Source: Candidatus Moraniibacteriota bacterium
GTDB lineage: Bacteria > Patescibacteriota > Minisyncoccia > Moranbacterales > UBA1568
NCBI GenBank assembly: GCA_016699975.1
Contig: CP064994.1
Location: 711,828-775,827 of the forward strand
Length of the DNA stretch: 64,000 nt
Direction: 5' to 3'
Position numbers and translations under genes: made by a program. The notes under the pieces are model-generated. The model did no database searches, was not told the origin of the DNA, and worked only from the letters and a program-made list of their open reading frames with translations. Each line of letters begins with the position of its first letter. The stretch's first letter is position 1. Shown here piece after piece: positions 14,287 to 18,141 of this stretch.

Positions 14287-14316
14287 AAGACGATGAGGAA
14301 AAAAATATTCTGATCT

Positions 14317-15090
14317 TTATTTCAATTCCTCAATTAAACAATCCGATCCCTCGAAACATTCGTAGAAAATAGAGATTTCCTTTATAACGCGACCCGGACG
14401 ATTTGATGAGACAGACGTGTAAATGTTAATTCTATTTTCATATTTAAGTAGACGAAAAAAATCTGTATTATCTCTTTTATTTTTATTCATTTCTTTATCT
14501 TTGATGGTTGGGAAATACGAGATTGAACTTAAATTGTACAAATATTGTGAAGTTTTTCCGGCTGGAACAGGAAGCGTATTGCTGTCTGGAATAAGATGTC
14601 CGCCTTGCCCATTTACCACGAAATAAATATCATCCCACGATGTTAATGGTCGATCATAATCAACCAGTGCGTCAATGTATAGATACGCCCTTGAAAATTG
14701 TCCTCTTGATTTGTAGCTTTTTTTAATACCATCAAAATTAACTGTAGCAGGTTTATCATTTACACAACCACCAAGATGACACTCTGAAGAGATTTTTATA
14801 TTCCTAATATTAGGGTTGGGATTTGCTCCTTTTATTGCACTATAATCCGGGAGCTCGGAGGGTAACGCCTTTTGCCATAGCTCTTCCGAAGTTTTTATTT
14901 TCTCTTCTAACTCCTTTATTTCCTCAGCTCGTTGCTTTATTTTTTCATCAATGTCCCGCGAAATATTTTTCTCTATCACAACTCTTTTATTAGCCTCATT
15001 AGTCAAACCTCCAATATATAGACCCAGCAAAGTAGTTATGGAAGCTACTATTATCAAAATTAAATACGCCATCAGATCATTTTTTTTCAT
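14317..15090 (-). CDS. hypothetical membrane-anchored coiled-coil protein
   Basis: 257 aa. N-terminal TM (LMAYLILIIVASITTLLGLYIGG), then a K/E-rich coiled coil, then a C-terminal domain of unknown function. Last gene of the four-gene minus-strand operon. Confidence 0.5.
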   Translation of the reverse strand: MKKNDLMAYLILIIVASITTLLGLYIGGLTNEANKRVVIEKNISRDIDEKIKQRAEEIKELEEKIKTSEELWQKALPSELPDYSAIKGANPNPNIRNIKISSECHLGGCVNDKPATVNFDGIKKSYKSRGQFSRAYLYIDALVDYDRPLTSWDDIYFVVNGQGGHLIPDSNTLPVPAGKTSQYLYNLSSISYFPTIKDKEMNKNKRDNTDFFRLLKYENRINIYTSVSSNRPGRVIKEISIFYECFEGSDCLIEELK

Positions 15091-15400
15091 ATCCCTTCCT
15101 TAATGTTATCGGTAATACTGTTACTGCAAGCAGAATCACCCAAAATAGGCAAAGAGCAGTTATTATCTGGTGCATTATCTTTGGTAAAGGTTTCCAAAAC
15201 TTCCAAAATCTCTTATCATATGCGGTTGCATGTAAAAAAATGGCTCCTATTGGGAGAATAAATGTATTTGAAACAACCGCGATTGACCAAGAATAATAAT
15301 CAAACTTCATCTCTAAGAGTATAAATAGAGTTAAATAACAGAAAGCAAACAGCGACGTAAAGCTGAAACACGCCCATTTTTTTTCTTGATTTGATTTCAT
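15077..15400 (-). CDS. small integral membrane protein
   Basis: 107 aa with three hydrophobic helices. Overlaps the neighbouring genes. Confidence 0.45.
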   Translation of the reverse strand: MKSNQEKKWACFSFTSLFAFCYLTLFILLEMKFDYYSWSIAVVSNTFILPIGAIFLHATAYDKRFWKFWKPLPKIMHQIITALCLFWVILLAVTVLPITLRKGYEKK

Positions 15401-15479
15401 ATCGAGGTAAATAGCCTACATTATGAGATTCTCGGTTTTCATACTCGCTCGCGCTTCCACTTAATAATCTATAGGGACA

Positions 15480-15719
15480 TTATGTGTGGAATCTATGCTT
15501 AAACGCTCGTCTAAAACCAGCGTCTTCAGCTTCTTTTACGGTAAATGCGTAAAATTCACCTTTACTTTTCGTGATTACAGTTCTGTCATACTGCTGATCC
15601 ATTGGTAAGTGGTATATTTTCGTATTACCAGACTCGTCATAATTTTTGTTGCATTTAATTCTCGGGAAATTCCCAATCGGCTTGTTTTCGATGATCTCAA
15701 CACTTAATGCCTTTGCCAT
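15480..15719 (-). CDS. small hypothetical protein
   Basis: 79-aa ORF overlapping the 3' end of the nuclease gene by 16 bp (operonic). No recognised domain. Confidence 0.35.
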   Translation of the reverse strand: MAKALSVEIIENKPIGNFPRIKCNKNYDESGNTKIYHLPMDQQYDRTVITKSKGEFYAFTVKEAEDAGFRRAFKHRFHT

Positions 15720-16741
15720 TTCTTTTGCTCTTTCGGATAAAGATATAGATGTAAAAATATTGGTCGCAGTTTATTTTCAGTTAAAAACCTTGCAAACTCT
15801 TCAAATGTTTTCGGTTTATTATGACTCCCAAAGTTTTTAATCCAATATTCCATGGTTGTACCAAACAATTGAAAGATGTGTTTTTCGTGTATTTCTTTAT
15901 AGTGCGCCCAATATTTACACTGAATGATACAAACCTCATTACCTTTCTTGGCGATAATATCTCTGCCTAAATCATCGAACCCGTCAATTATACCTTTGTA
16001 TTCGATAGAATAGCCTTTCTGTTCATAGATGTATCCGACGTACATCTCATAATCTCTTCCGATTGCCCATTTTGATTTATTTCTATTTTTTAGGTATCTG
16101 TCCAATGCTTTTTGATTTCTCTCCACGGAAGGGAGCTTTTTATATTCTTCAGGAGTTAAGAAATTTTTAACACGGTCTTCGCTATTATCGTCATCTCCAT
16201 CGTCATCAATCTTTACAGGAATTTCTTCATTTTCATCCTCAGCAATTAAATCAGTTAGCCAAGGAAATAGCTTTTCAAAGTAGTTAATTTTATAGTTCAG
16301 TATTTTATTTTCCCTTCTCAAAACTTTTTTTTCACTTTTTACCTCACGAACGATTTCCGCTGTTGTATGGGCTGGATGTTTTTTTGTGTTTAGATATTTT
16401 TCAAACTTTGAATCTTTCAATGCAAAATACTCAGAAAATGCTTCTGCTAACCAAGGAAAACCCATTGATTTTTGAGCAGCTATTTTTTTGACTTCTTCTT
16501 TATCTTGCGCAACTTTGTGATTCCATGATTCTACTTTTGATACCCAATTTTTTCTATCTTCTTCAACTTTCAATTCATGCATTTTTATAGAATTTTCCAA
16601 GCTATCTAATTTTGGTTTCAGGTCAAGATACTTTTTGGAATTAGAAACTGCCTCGCTGATCCACGAAATTACTTTCCAAAGTACGGAAATCAAAATGATG
16701 ATAAGTATCCATGCGTAATCTTCCATAAATGTTTCTGGCAC
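15704..16741 (-). CDS. membrane-anchored coiled-coil protein with a C-terminal Mrr-like restriction endonuclease (PD-(D/E)xK) domain
   Basis: N-terminal TM (WILIIILISVLWKVISWI), a long coiled coil, an acidic linker (DDDGDDDNSED), then GRDYEMYVGYIYEQKGYSIEYKGIIDGFDDLGRDIIAKKGNEVCIIQCKYW. This matches the Mrr_cat core (GRxFE...GDGGIDi...vQCKRw). Confidence 0.65.
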   Translation of the reverse strand: MPETFMEDYAWILIIILISVLWKVISWISEAVSNSKKYLDLKPKLDSLENSIKMHELKVEEDRKNWVSKVESWNHKVAQDKEEVKKIAAQKSMGFPWLAEAFSEYFALKDSKFEKYLNTKKHPAHTTAEIVREVKSEKKVLRRENKILNYKINYFEKLFPWLTDLIAEDENEEIPVKIDDDGDDDNSEDRVKNFLTPEEYKKLPSVERNQKALDRYLKNRNKSKWAIGRDYEMYVGYIYEQKGYSIEYKGIIDGFDDLGRDIIAKKGNEVCIIQCKYWAHYKEIHEKHIFQLFGTTMEYWIKNFGSHNKPKTFEEFARFLTENKLRPIFLHLYLYPKEQKKWQRH

Positions 16742-16780
16742 AGAGTTTTAAGCACTTGTCTACTATCCAATCCTTTCCCT

Positions 16781-16993
16781 CTAAGACGAACTTTTTTCAC
16801 GATCAAGAATCCTCATCACATCCCCCCTCCGATACCGCCTATCCCCTCGCGTCCCAAACCGGATCGCTTTCAAAAATCCTTTGTTGTCCCAGTTACGGAG
16901 CGTGTTCGGGTGACAATGCAAAATCTCACATGCCTCCTGAAGCGTCAGAATCTCTGATGCTTTTTCTTTGGGTTGTCTTTTCATAGGTTTCAA
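16781..16993 (-). CDS. excisionase/AlpA-family helix-turn-helix DNA-binding protein
   Basis: 70 aa. LTLQEACEILHCHPNTLRNWDNKGFLKAIRFGTRGDRRYRRGDV matches the excisionase-family (HTH_17-like) domain. Confidence 0.6.
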   Translation of the reverse strand: MKPMKRQPKEKASEILTLQEACEILHCHPNTLRNWDNKGFLKAIRFGTRGDRRYRRGDVMRILDREKSSS

Positions 16994-17033
16994 CTTACTA
17001 TGAGTCTACAAGATATTCTAATTTACGCAAAGT

Positions 17034-17819
17034 ATGCCCCGAAAAAGAGGATGCAAGGCATTTGGTCTTCCGATACAACTCATTGTTTTTAACAATGAAC
17101 TCCCGCTATTGGCAAAGACTCTTATGGGAGATGTGCCTGATATTGCGCCAATCTTTCAACATGGCTCAACACCAACAAGCACCCTCTTTCTCAAACCAAA
17201 TCTCTCCGTCCAGGGAAAATTCAGGCTTGAAGGAAAAGAACAGCACCGTATTTACCATATCCAACAATTCAGATTCAATTACATTGACGGAAAAGGAAAT
17301 AGGAATTTCGACGAGTTGATTGGAGGAAGGCTCTATCCGAGTATCGTAGATATCAAATCAAAAAACGAGCTCCTACAGTTCATTGCCAATAACCATCCAG
17401 ATTTTTCAATAGTTCCATCGTCTGAAGAACAAGAACACCTGAATAAAAAGTATTGTGATGCTGGATTAAAGGGATACCCAATATTCGATATTGTATACTC
17501 GGTCGATTCCAAACCAAAAATGTCTTTTCCAATATCGAAAGATCAATGGGAAGCTATCAAGGACATAAACAGAGATTTCTTTTGGGAGAAAATCCAGAAA
17601 TTTCAAAGTTTTGTTCAGGGATGGATTACCAAAGAATCAGACAAAGCGCTTTCTGAAGATACCTTACTTTGGCTTAATCGGGAACTTGAAAATGTCAGCC
17701 CCATTCTCACGGCGTACAAAGGATCGGTTTGGGAGCGGGTTCGAGACGATAATGTCAAGCCATCAACAGAAGAGGAGCGGGAACAGCTCGCGAAAAAGAT
17801 ACGGCGATTCGGTTTGTAA
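17034..17819 (+). CDS. hypothetical protein
   Basis: 261-aa ORF in the island. No recognisable motif. Confidence 0.4.
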   Translation: MPRKRGCKAFGLPIQLIVFNNELPLLAKTLMGDVPDIAPIFQHGSTPTSTLFLKPNLSVQGKFRLEGKEQHRIYHIQQFRFNYIDGKGNRNFDELIGGRLYPSIVDIKSKNELLQFIANNHPDFSIVPSSEEQEHLNKKYCDAGLKGYPIFDIVYSVDSKPKMSFPISKDQWEAIKDINRDFFWEKIQKFQSFVQGWITKESDKALSEDTLLWLNRELENVSPILTAYKGSVWERVRDDNVKPSTEEEREQLAKKIRRFGL

Positions 17820-18070
17820 GAACGGCGCATAATCTTTTCAGTCGAGGCACTCCCGAGACGAAACGAGAGGTCATCGATATTCTTTCTTCGAACATCGGAA
17901 TCAAAGACCGGAAAATCGCTTATTTCAACCTCAATGACCCGTTTGCATGGCTTCGCGAAGATGTGGAAAGCATACAGGCGGAAATGTGTGCCTTCGAACC
18001 GAAAAAAGAGGCGGTTGATGGCTCTGTGAAAACAAAAACAGAAGCGGTAGCTTCTGCTCGTTCTATGCTG

Positions 18071-18141
18071 CTGGGGTGCTAGGATTCGAACCTAGGATCA
18101 TGGGACCAGAACCCATTGCCTTACCGCTTGGCTACACCCCA
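18071..18141 (-). tRNA. tRNA-Gln (anticodon CTG)
   Basis: The reverse complement reads TGGGGTGTAGCCAAGCGGTAAGGCAATGGGTTCTGGTCCCATGATCCTAGGTTCGAATCCTAGCACCCCAG. It folds as a cloverleaf with anticodon stem ATGGG/CCCAT, loop TTCTGGT, T-loop TTCGAAT and a UGGGG...CCCCA acceptor, like E. coli tRNA-Gln. CCA is not encoded. Confidence 0.85.

What the first reader, a model, noticed from the sequence alone, without database searches (positions are those of the whole stretch)
14300..18141. AT-rich island at the tRNA-Gln 3' end: membrane-anchored coiled-coil Mrr-like nuclease operon plus excisionase-family HTH
The sequence between greA and tRNA-Gln drops sharply in GC. It carries a four-gene overlapping minus-strand operon:
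- a TM plus long coiled coil plus C-terminal Mrr_cat-like PD-(D/E)xK nuclease (DGFDD...IIQCKYW);
- a 79-aa protein;
- a 3-TM membrane protein;
- a second TM/coiled-coil protein with a Cys-containing C-terminal domain.

An excisionase/AlpA-type HTH gene sits 40 bp upstream. The island abuts the 3' end of a tRNA gene.

A membrane-tethered Mrr-type nuclease with two membrane partners is not a standard type IV restriction layout. It looks more like an abortive-infection or membrane-sensing defence module carried on a degraded integrative element. No integrase was seen, so the element is probably a remnant.
Basis: partly seen in the sequence, partly recalled or inferred. Interest (0 to 1): 0.7.

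Follow-up and report, generated by a model that had tools for sequence, protein, structure and literature searches.

The report
Solo membrane nuclease on decayed island
The AT-rich stretch is foreign cargo on a decayed mobile element beside a tRNA gene, but it is not a four-gene system: it holds a stand-alone membrane-anchored DNA-cutting enzyme from a large, widely exchanged, unstudied family (probably anti-phage), plus an unrelated two-gene membrane cassette.

Summary
Window 14,290-16,805 is the lowest-GC stretch of the 64 kb (0.35 against 0.48 +/- 0.03). It sits between a GreA-like gene and an HTH gene, next to tRNA-Gln.

The "345-aa nuclease" and the "79-aa protein" are one 415-aa gene. 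It is split by a single missing T in a T6 run; two independent short-read assemblies of the same strain have it intact.

The protein has an N-terminal TM helix, a coiled coil, a Mrr_cat PD-(D/E)xK domain and a C-terminal "sunset" domain. Its family is large (at least 939 clusters at 50% identity) and 65-80% identical across phyla. It is always a solo gene, found in prophage ends, defence islands or between housekeeping genes. It never sits beside the 3-TM or 257-aa genes.

Those two genes form a separate conserved pair, found elsewhere without any nuclease.

An integrase was missed. The last 92 codons of a large serine recombinase abut tRNA-Gln. A ~3.9-kb deletion removed the rest, and an undeleted relative was recovered.

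Best reading: a degraded recombinase island with a swappable defence-cargo slot, carrying a candidate single-gene nuclease that would work like Shield's ShdA. The defence function is inferred, not shown.

The parts
14290..16805 (.). AT-rich cargo block (GC about 0.35), holding two unrelated modules. Left edge: homology with relatives ends at 14,289. Right edge: homology with sister elements L015/L016 starts at 16,805/16,825, inside the 3' end of the HTH gene.
15480..16726 (-). One gene for a 415-aa membrane-anchored nuclease: TM helix (about residues 5-27, predicted N-out/C-in), coiled coil with two conserved 'FPWL' motifs, Mrr_cat PD-(D/E)xK domain (residues about 224-340; E227, D256, Q269-x-K271 invariant), and a C-terminal 'sunset' domain. 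The true start is the ATG at 16,726 (MEDYAW...), as in homologues. In the window the reading frame is broken, giving ORFs 15,704-16,741 and 15,480-15,719.
15753..15757 (-). Frameshift site: T5 run on the coding strand where two independent short-read assemblies of the same strain (L010, L011) and 10 of 12 close homologues have T6. It is the only difference over 3,005 and 1,893 nt.
15077..15400 (-). 107-aa protein with three TM helices. It is the first gene of a conserved two-gene cassette (48% identical partner in L019, 35% in phage-like L020/L021). No family hit in Pfam, NCBIfam, PHROGs or PADLOC.
14317..15090 (-). [not shown]
16781..16993 (-). 70-aa HTH_17/MerR-type DNA-binding protein. It is a backbone gene of the element, conserved at 85-92% in sister elements L015 and L016 while the gene downstream of it differs in each.
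17034..17802 (+). First 256 codons of a 336-338-aa gene of unknown function (P0121 98%, P0122 90%). The intact protein has a Cys-rich C-terminus. The gene is truncated at the deletion junction 17,802/17,803; the ORF runs on to a fortuitous stop at 17,819.
17803..18082 (+). 3' remnant (92 codons plus stop) of a large serine recombinase gene: 97% identical to the L015 copy and 77% to the intact 514-aa P0123. The Resolvase, Recombinase and Zn_ribbon_recom domains are deleted. The stop codon overlaps the 3' end of tRNA-Gln by 13 nt on the opposite strand, as in L016.
18070..18141 (-). tRNA-Gln(CTG), the insertion landmark of the element. FtsX, FtsE and a release-factor gene follow, as in relative L016.

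Best explanation
WHAT IT IS
The locus is the cargo end of a decayed integrative island driven by a large serine recombinase (LSR). The island sits at tRNA-Gln in a Candidatus Moraniibacteriota genome.

BACKBONE (shown)
- The backbone is the LSR gene abutting the tRNA plus a divergent pair: an HTH gene and a 338-aa gene.
- It is shared with sister elements.
- The slot downstream of the HTH gene holds different cargo in each element.
- Here a ~3.9-kb illegitimate deletion removed all but 92 codons of the recombinase, so the island is immobilised.

CARGO: TWO INDEPENDENT AT-RICH MODULES (shown)
1. A single 415-aa gene, not two.
  - It encodes a nuclease tethered to the membrane by one N-terminal helix. 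The catalytic part is predicted to face the cytoplasm.
  - The order of parts is coiled coil, Mrr_cat PD-(D/E)xK domain with intact catalytic residues, then a small C-terminal 'sunset' domain.
  - The family is large, is exchanged between phyla, and always occurs as a solo gene.
2. A 3-TM protein plus a membrane-anchored beta-sandwich protein. This pair travels together elsewhere without any nuclease.

HOW THE NUCLEASE PROBABLY WORKS (inferred)
- It is a one-gene defence against incoming DNA and works like Shield's ShdA.
- The membrane tether keeps a DNA-degrading nuclease away from the chromosome.
- The nuclease acts on phage or plasmid DNA at its point of entry, or is unleashed on infection.
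- The sunset domain supplies nucleic-acid binding in place of the Mrr N-terminal domain.

THE MEMBRANE PAIR (speculative)
Its role is unknown. A surface or superinfection-exclusion function is a guess.

THE FRAMESHIFT
The frameshift in this assembly is most likely a homopolymer assembly error. If it is real, the gene is dead in this strain.
For: ONE GENE, NOT TWO
- Homologues are 413-415 aa and cover both ORFs.
- L010 and L011 are identical to the window except T6 against T5.

DOMAINS
- Mrr_cat: 31.2 bits against a cut-off of 21. All 34 relatives hit at least one of the two Mrr_cat models: 30 hit Mrr_cat and all 34 hit Mrr_cat_2.
- Sunset domain: 28.9 bits against a cut-off of 27.
- Catalytic residues are invariant.
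- Topology follows from charge distribution around the TM helix.

FAMILY SIZE AND SPREAD
- 2,278 cluster representatives at E <= 1e-3 and 939 at E <= 1e-30.
- 65-80% identity between Patescibacteria, Pseudomonadota, Planctomycetota and Desulfobacterota.
- The gene's GC is 0.28-0.35 and lies below its flanks in 13 of 15 loci.

SOLO GENE
- No TM107, P257 or HTH homologue in 17 other nuclease loci.

CONTEXTS
- End of a P2-like prophage, also called viral by IMG/VR.
- Between a CI-type repressor and an integrase in a viral contig.
- Next to SduA_C and SLFN/HATPase genes.
- Flanked by SoFic/Fic genes.
- In a relative, the equivalent slot after the GreA-like gene holds GmrSD.
- The adjacent block hits pVip/VakA models.
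- L016's cargo is a PDC-S37/Hhe-like helicase-nuclease.

ISLAND
- LSR remnant and intact relatives.
- Deletion mapped against L015.

MEMBRANE PAIR
- The pair is conserved in L019, L020 and L021.

ANALOGUE
- ShdA is membrane-bound with a cytoplasmic restriction-endonuclease-fold nuclease. It is sufficient alone, lowers transformation, and is toxic without its anchor (PMC10270631).
Against: - No experiment, and no PADLOC model hit for the nuclease.
- In several Patescibacteria the gene lies between housekeeping genes with no defence or mobile neighbour: ArgRS/IleRS in L006, PNPase in L013.
- Neighbourhood enrichment was not tested against a baseline.
- The structure model of the nuclease failed (pLDDT 51.8), so fold-level comparison with ShdA, Mrr or others was impossible.
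- The window copy is frameshifted, so the gene may be inactive here.
- Topology rests only on the positive-inside rule.
- The three cargo genes are co-oriented and tightly spaced (79-nt gap, 14-nt overlap) with no terminator detected between them. Co-transcription, and local functional coupling, cannot be excluded.
Confidence: 0.6

Rival explanations
1. One reading: the nuclease, the 3-TM protein and the 257-aa protein (plus a 79-aa protein) form one membrane-sensing or abortive-infection system. The membrane partners would sense infection and control the nuclease.
For: The genes are co-oriented and compact (79-nt gap, 14-nt overlap). They share the same low GC and no terminator was detected between them. 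The same arrangement is present in two other samples of this strain.
Against: The nuclease occurs without these genes in 17 other loci. The pair occurs without a nuclease in 5 other loci. The 79-aa ORF is the nuclease's own C-terminus. No PADLOC model fits any component.
Confidence: 0.07
2. The nuclease is not a defence gene. It would be a cellular membrane-associated DNA-processing enzyme, for example acting on DNA taken up by competence machinery, on which Patescibacteria depend, or an RmuC-like recombination-limiting nuclease.
For: In several Patescibacteria it lies among housekeeping genes with no mobile or defence neighbour. The sequence is very strongly conserved, with 66% mean column identity. 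The membrane location suits DNA entering through ComEC.
Against: The distribution is patchy, and identity across phyla is near-identical in a way incompatible with vertical descent. The gene's GC is foreign in most hosts. It is present at prophage ends and in a lysogeny module. It is absent from close relatives at this site.
Confidence: 0.15
3. The nuclease gene is a selfish toxin-like or homing-type element that spreads for its own sake. Its membrane tether would limit self-damage, and it would give the host no benefit.
For: There are single-gene insertions between conserved housekeeping genes (L006, L013). Cross-phylum identity is high and GC is lower than the flanks. PD-(D/E)xK homing endonucleases exist (general knowledge).
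Against: No intein, intron or transposase is consistently attached. No conserved target gene or insertion site is seen across loci. A membrane anchor is not known for homing enzymes.
Confidence: 0.08
4. In this particular genome the nuclease is a pseudogene. The frameshift would be real, removing the last core beta-strand and the sunset domain, so the locus is decaying cargo on a decaying island.
For: The deposited assembly has T5 and NCBI annotated a 345-aa product. The neighbouring recombinase and 338-aa gene are truly truncated. Another family member (P0045) is broken at the same run and L008 is broken elsewhere.
Against: Two independent short-read assemblies from other runs are identical over 1.9-3.0 kb apart from this one base, and they carry T6. 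A single-base homopolymer loss is the typical error of long-read assemblies; that this MAG is long-read based is my recollection, not tested.
Confidence: 0.15

Closest known systems
Shield system effector ShdA (Pseudomonas; PLoS Genet 2023, PMC10270631)
   Same: It has an N-terminal transmembrane anchor and a cytoplasmic nuclease of the restriction-endonuclease-like (PD-(D/E)xK) fold. One gene is sufficient for defence and it lies in defence islands. The membrane tether is thought to restrain toxicity.
   Different: ShdA's nuclease is an RmuC domain. The family here hits only Mrr_cat and Mrr_cat_2, never RmuC. It carries a C-terminal sunset domain and conserved 'FPWL' motifs that ShdA is not reported to have. 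No PADLOC model matches. Function is untested.
Epona (Vibrio cholerae superintegron cassette; bioRxiv 10.1101/2024.07.02.601686)
   Same: It is a single protein joining a membrane-spanning part to a Mrr_cat nuclease domain, with shown anti-phage activity in E. coli.
   Different: Epona has a holin-like domain with two TM helices and is almost confined to V. cholerae. The family here has one TM helix, a long coiled coil and a sunset domain, and is spread over many phyla.
Mrr-type (type IV) restriction endonucleases
   Same: They share the Mrr_cat catalytic domain with the D...Q-x-K signature. They are solo genes, and the same slot in a relative holds another type IV enzyme, GmrSD.
   Different: The family here has no Mrr_N winged-helix DNA-binding domain. 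It is membrane-anchored, has a coiled coil, and ends in a sunset domain. Dependence on DNA modification is unknown.
Large-serine-recombinase integrative islands and prophages (phiC31/Bxb1/SCCmec-type recombinases)
   Same: Sister elements carry a 510-540-aa recombinase with Resolvase + Recombinase + Zn_ribbon_recom domains at the element's edge. They show site-specific placement, variable cargo, and no long direct repeats.
   Different: Here only the last 92 codons survive. The gene's stop overlaps the 3' end of tRNA-Gln. The att sites and the far end of the element were not defined.

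Membership tests
Mrr / type IV restriction endonuclease | Mrr_cat (PF04471) PD-(D/E)xK catalytic domain with conserved acidic residue and (Q/E)-x-K | tested here: met
   27.1 bits (split ORF) and 31.2 bits (intact P0003) against a cut-off of 21. 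30 of 34 relatives hit Mrr_cat and 34 of 34 hit Mrr_cat_2. D256, Q269 and K271 are invariant.
Mrr / type IV restriction endonuclease | N-terminal winged-helix DNA-recognition domain (Mrr_N) in a soluble protein | tested here: not met
   No Pfam hit other than Mrr_cat and Mrr_cat_2 in any of 34 members. The N-terminus is a TM helix plus coiled coil.
Mrr / type IV restriction endonuclease | Cleavage dependent on modified DNA | not testable with these tools
   Needs an in vitro or in vivo assay.
Shield (ShdA) | N-terminal membrane anchor with a cytoplasmic nuclease domain | tested here: met
   One hydrophobic segment at residues 1-28. The flanks are MEDY (acidic) against NSKKYLDLKPK (basic), which gives N-out/C-in by the positive-inside rule. 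This is a prediction only.
Shield (ShdA) | RmuC domain as the nuclease | tested here: not met
   No RmuC hit in Pfam for P0003 or any of 34 relatives. No PADLOC hit at E <= 0.01.
Epona | Mrr_cat fused to a holin-like domain with two TM helices | tested here: not met
   Mrr_cat is present, but there is a single TM helix and no holin family hit. The architecture is as described.
Large serine recombinase integrative element | Recombinase with Resolvase + Recombinase + Zn_ribbon_recom domains | tested here: not met
   The window keeps only the C-terminal 92 codons (17,804-18,079). Intact in sister elements P0123-P0128, L015 and L016. It is therefore a remnant of such an element, not a functional one.
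Large serine recombinase integrative element | Same chromosomal site occupied in relatives, with different cargo | tested here: met
   L016 has LSR-tRNA-Gln-FtsX-FtsE-RF as in the window. The HTH gene is conserved (87.5%) but the cargo is a helicase-nuclease + DUF2130. L015 has the same backbone (97%) with another gene after HTH.
Tyrosine-integrase tRNA island | Direct repeat of the tRNA 3' end at the far border, and a tyrosine integrase | tested here: not met
   No second copy of the 16- or 24-nt tRNA-Gln 3' end at up to 3 mismatches in 64 kb. No repeat family involves the tRNA. No Phage_integrase hit among the locus proteins scanned, 11,651-17,819.
Excisionase (Xis/AlpA, TIGR01764) | Score above the curated cut-off of the excisionase model | tested here: not met
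   TIGR01764 gives 23.5 bits against a cut-off of 28.8. HTH_17 (42.5 against 27) and MerR_1 pass, so it is a generic HTH_17/MerR-type protein. The best PHROG labels are 'excisionase and transcriptional regulator'.
Holin-endolysin lysis cassette (considered for the 3-TM + 257-aa pair) | A muralytic enzyme domain in the second protein | tested here: not met
   [not shown]

The most novel reading that the evidence does not exclude
The TM + coiled-coil + Mrr_cat + sunset proteins are a new, very widespread single-gene anti-phage/anti-plasmid system. It would be distinct from Shield and Epona, spread by recent transfer between Patescibacteria, Proteobacteria, Planctomycetes and others, and carried as a moron by prophages. 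The unusually invariant 'QKSMGFPWLA' and 'YHLP-DQQYD' motifs would mark a conserved sensing or DNA-capture mechanism at the membrane.
Probability: 0.4. Interest if true: 0.55.

Novelty: new variant of a known kind. Interest (0 to 1): 0.4.

Why it matters
If the family is a defence nuclease, it adds a third and far more widespread example of 'nuclease on a membrane leash' immunity, after Shield and Epona. It would also be one of the few defence genes shared at about 70% identity between ultra-small Patescibacteria and ordinary bacteria.

The locus also documents a recombinase-driven island in Moraniibacteriota with a swappable cargo slot. That is useful for mining further defence genes in a phylum where few are known.

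As it stands, the specific claim of a three-partner membrane system is not supported, and the function is only inferred.

Tried and rejected
- att sites. I searched for direct repeats of the tRNA-Gln 3' end (repeat finder; 24- and 16-nt patterns with up to 3 mismatches). None was found. This is not informative for a serine-recombinase element.
- Nuclease structure. AlphaFold of the nuclease with 34 close homologues gave pLDDT 51.8, which is unusable, so no fold search was run on it.
- PDB sequence searches with the nuclease (single sequence and profile) gave nothing meaningful.
- PADLOC, PHROGs and NCBIfam gave no hit for the 3-TM, 257-aa and 338-aa proteins.
- Foldseek of the 257-aa model against viral structures gave only generic jelly-roll hits, none at E <= 0.001. 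The afdb50 library was unavailable.
- IMG/VR scan for the 257-aa family found no relatives.
- tblastn of the recombinase tail against phages gave one weak hit; against plasmids it gave none.
- An exact-sequence look-up of the window's 345-aa product found nothing on record.
- Programmed frameshift or phase variation at the T-run is rejected as unsupported. The T6 run follows from AT-rich codons (ATA TTT TTT) and other broken copies break elsewhere too.
- Holin-endolysin reading of the membrane pair is rejected because there is no enzyme fold.
- Literature searches for 'sunset domain', for membrane-anchored nuclease + anti-phage, and for large serine recombinase + Patescibacteria found nothing relevant.
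- The empty site (ProRS or GreA-like gene directly next to tRNA-Gln) was not found. The far border of the island is therefore undefined.

Full report
WHAT IS THERE

The window is from a Candidatus Moraniibacteriota MAG. The 345-aa ORF is identical to an NCBI protein from a 1.05-Mb contig.
- GC falls from about 0.48 to 0.35 over 14,290-16,805. The 2.7-kb window starting at 14,301 is the minimum of the whole 64 kb, about 4 sd below the mean.
- tRNA-Gln(CTG) lies at 18,070-18,141 on the minus strand, with its 3' end towards the region.
- On the minus strand lie an HTH gene (16,781-16,993), ORFs of 345 and 79 aa, a 107-aa ORF and a 257-aa ORF.
- On the plus strand lies a 261-aa ORF (17,034-17,819).

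THE NUCLEASE IS ONE GENE

- Almost all of 799 homologues are 413-415 aa and span both the 345-aa and the 79-aa ORFs.
- Two Logan short-read contigs from different runs match the window over 3,005 and 1,893 nt with a single difference. They have T6 where the window has T5, at 15,753-15,757.
- With T6 the gene encodes 415 aa, starting at the ATG at 16,726.
- The run arises from AT-rich codons (ATA TTT TTT) and is present in 10 of 12 close homologues.
- I therefore read the split as a homopolymer error or a very recent mutation, not as a separate 79-aa gene or a programmed shift.
- One other deposited homologue (P0045) is broken at the same run.

ANATOMY OF THE NUCLEASE

- One hydrophobic helix sits at the N-terminus. 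Acidic residues precede it and basic residues follow it, so the bulk of the protein is predicted to be cytoplasmic (inference from the positive-inside rule).
- A coiled coil of variable length follows. It contains two near-invariant motifs, QKSMGFPWLA and LFPWL.
- Next comes a Mrr_cat domain: 31.2 bits against a cut-off of 21, and all 34 relatives hit at least one of the two Mrr_cat models (30 hit Mrr_cat, all 34 hit Mrr_cat_2). E227, D256 and Q269-x-K271 are invariant.
- The C-terminus matches NCBIfam's 'sunset' domain (28.9 bits, cut-off 27). The paper library holds nothing on this domain.
- Some long relatives duplicate the coiled-coil module and carry a SWIM-like CxC...CxH insert.
- AlphaFold with the shallow alignment failed (pLDDT 51.8). 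No solved structure is detectably related by sequence.

A LARGE, MOBILE, SOLO FAMILY

- A profile search of 1.84 billion cluster representatives gave 2,278 hits at E <= 1e-3 and 939 at E <= 1e-30. The full-length architecture is retained.
- Proteins from Patescibacteria, Pseudomonadota (Spartinivicinus ruber), Planctomycetota, Desulfobacula and others are 65-80% identical to the window's.
- The gene is AT-rich (0.28-0.35 in close homologues) and below its flanks in 13 of 15 loci.
- In 17 other loci no homologue of the HTH, 107-aa, 257-aa or 261-aa proteins lies within 5-8 kb.
- The contexts are varied:
  - the end of a P2-like prophage in S. ruber, which IMG/VR also calls viral;
  - between a CI-type repressor and a tyrosine integrase in another viral contig;
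  - beside SduA_C (Shedu) and a Schlafen/HATPase gene with a Y1 transposase nearby;
  - flanked by Fic/SoFic genes;
  - but also between ArgRS and IleRS, or near PNPase, in Patescibacteria.
- A PADLOC/Pfam sweep of 114 neighbouring ORFs shows a mix of defence-like, mobile and housekeeping families. I could not compute an enrichment.

THE TWO 'PARTNERS' ARE A SEPARATE CASSETTE

- The 257-aa protein has about 50 homologues (45-61% identical, no Pfam domain).
- In the four contexts read, a gene of 106-110 aa precedes it.
- This upstream gene is homologous to the window's 3-TM protein in three contexts: 48% in L019 and 35% in L020/L021.
- None of the four contexts has a nuclease homologue.
- Their neighbours are a DpnII restriction-modification pair, a KAP NTPase with MazE, or phage-like genes (YopX, phiTE_072, reverse transcriptase).
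- The structure model is confident (pLDDT 91.9). It shows one long helix (residues 3-71) and a beta-sandwich.
- C245 and C251 are invariant.
- Topology is ambiguous and function is unknown. A surface or superinfection-exclusion role is a guess.

THE ISLAND AND THE MISSED INTEGRASE

- The plus strand from 17,804 to 18,079 encodes the last 92 residues of a large serine recombinase. It is 77% identical to the intact 514-aa P0123, which has Resolvase, Recombinase and Zn_ribbon_recom domains.
- Its stop codon (18,080-18,082) overlaps the tRNA-Gln 3' end by 13 nt on the opposite strand. The same overlap is seen in relative L016.
- Contig L015 is the undeleted form. It matches the window at 16,805-17,802 and again at 17,792-18,034 (97%).
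  - Between these matches it carries about 3.9 kb that the window lacks.
  - The missing piece holds the end of a 338-aa gene, three small genes, and the 5' 1.25 kb of the recombinase gene.
  - The junction (17,802/17,803) has at most 2-5 nt of microhomology.
  - The 261-aa ORF is thus a truncated 338-aa gene.
- L016, from a relative with the same tRNA-Gln/FtsX/FtsE/RF neighbourhood, has the intact recombinase and the same HTH gene (87.5%).
  - Downstream of its HTH gene lies a PDC-S37/Hhe-like helicase-nuclease and a DUF2130 gene.
- L015 also differs from the window immediately after the HTH gene.
- So the HTH and the recombinase are backbone, and the position after the HTH gene is a cargo slot.
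- The HTH protein is HTH_17/MerR-type and does not reach the excisionase model's cut-off.

THE LEFT FLANK

- Relatives at about 87% identity (L028-L032) share the five-gene block 10,890-14,289 but diverge exactly at 14,289. At least four different sequences follow.
- In L028 the next genes include a GmrSD type IV restriction enzyme.
- The block itself is GreA-like, kinase-like, radical SAM, CYTH, GreA-like. It hits PADLOC's pVip and VakA models.
- The radical SAM protein does not retrieve viperin among solved structures, so that label is tentative.
- The nuclease therefore lies in a stretch of variable, defence-type genes.

HOW IT PROBABLY WORKS

Shown:
- an intact-looking PD-(D/E)xK active site on a membrane-anchored protein;
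- solo inheritance;
- frequent transfer;
- residence in prophages and variable islands.

Inferred:
- A one-gene defence that degrades incoming DNA at the membrane, or is released on infection, as proposed for Shield's ShdA. ShdA is membrane-bound with a cytoplasmic restriction-endonuclease-fold domain, is sufficient alone, lowers transformation, and could not be cloned without its anchor (PMC10270631).
- Epona, a Mrr_cat-holin fusion with anti-phage activity, is a second precedent.
- The family here is a member of neither. It has no RmuC hit, no two-TM holin part and no PADLOC hit.
- It also lacks the Mrr_N domain of canonical Mrr.

VERDICT

The compositional island, the Mrr-type domain and the 'remnant element' idea hold. 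The four-gene, three-partner system does not. The nuclease is a new variant of a known kind (a membrane-tethered defence nuclease) from a large unstudied family, with function inferred only. Interest is moderate.

Noticed in passing
window 11,144-14,286 (+ strand), with L028-L033: A five-gene block: GreA-like (165 aa), thymidylate-kinase-like, radical SAM (318 aa), CYTH, GreA-like (159 aa). It is conserved as a unit at about 87% identity in relatives whose flanks differ on both sides. PADLOC calls the radical SAM protein pVip (64 bits) and the kinase VakA/PDC-M51B. Viperin is not among the radical SAM protein's PDB sequence hits, so the label is tentative. Transcript-cleavage factors next to a chain-terminator-making enzyme suggest a self-rescue role for host RNA polymerase. 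No paper in the library links GreA with prokaryotic viperins.
   Followed up: partly
window 10,877-10,998; L028 819-919, 3,345-3,466, 5,082-5,191: A conserved element of about 100 nt (core CGTATTCTCTCAAAATGGCTCGAATGTGGCAATGGGCTGGAGGT). It is single-copy in the window, just upstream of the five-gene block, but present three times within 4.4 kb in relative L028. There is no Rfam match, no covariation and a weak consensus fold. Its nature is unknown.
   Followed up: partly
L028 10,364-12,130 (-): In a relative, the position just after the GreA-like gene, where the window has the AT-rich cargo, holds a GmrSD type IV restriction endonuclease and a 576-aa protein of unknown function.
   Followed up: partly
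window 18,070-18,082; L016 11,533-11,545: The recombinase reading frame ends inside the 3' end of tRNA-Gln on the opposite strand (13-nt overlap) in both the window and the intact relative. In some database entries (P0124, P0125) the recombinase ORF was called through the antisense tRNA.
   Followed up: partly
P0045 (NCBI, 345 aa); L008 8,001-9,261: Other deposited members of the nuclease family are also split by frameshifts: P0045 at the same T-run, L008 at a different place. Either homopolymer errors are common or there is recurrent decay.
   Followed up: no
P0224, P0251, P0006, P0007 (family members of 590-680 aa): Long relatives duplicate the 'FPWL...HPA...YFE-LFPWL' coiled-coil module. 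Two of them carry a SWIM-type zinc-finger-like motif (CTCxDF...CKHMLWL) between the copies.
   Followed up: no
window 10,157-11,143: About 1 kb without a convincing ORF and with lowered GC (0.41) lies between the prolyl-tRNA synthetase gene and the five-gene block. Only a sub-threshold Rfam hit was found (SraG, 19 bits against a gathering score of 50).
   Followed up: partly
L016 2,842-6,417 (-) and 1,532-2,791 (-): The sister island's cargo is a 1,191-aa AAA_11/AAA_12 helicase with a DUF559/MTES_1575 nuclease domain (PADLOC PDC-S37, E 2e-74; also Hhe/Mko-like), followed by a DUF2130 protein and a YcaO/nitroreductase gene.
   Followed up: no
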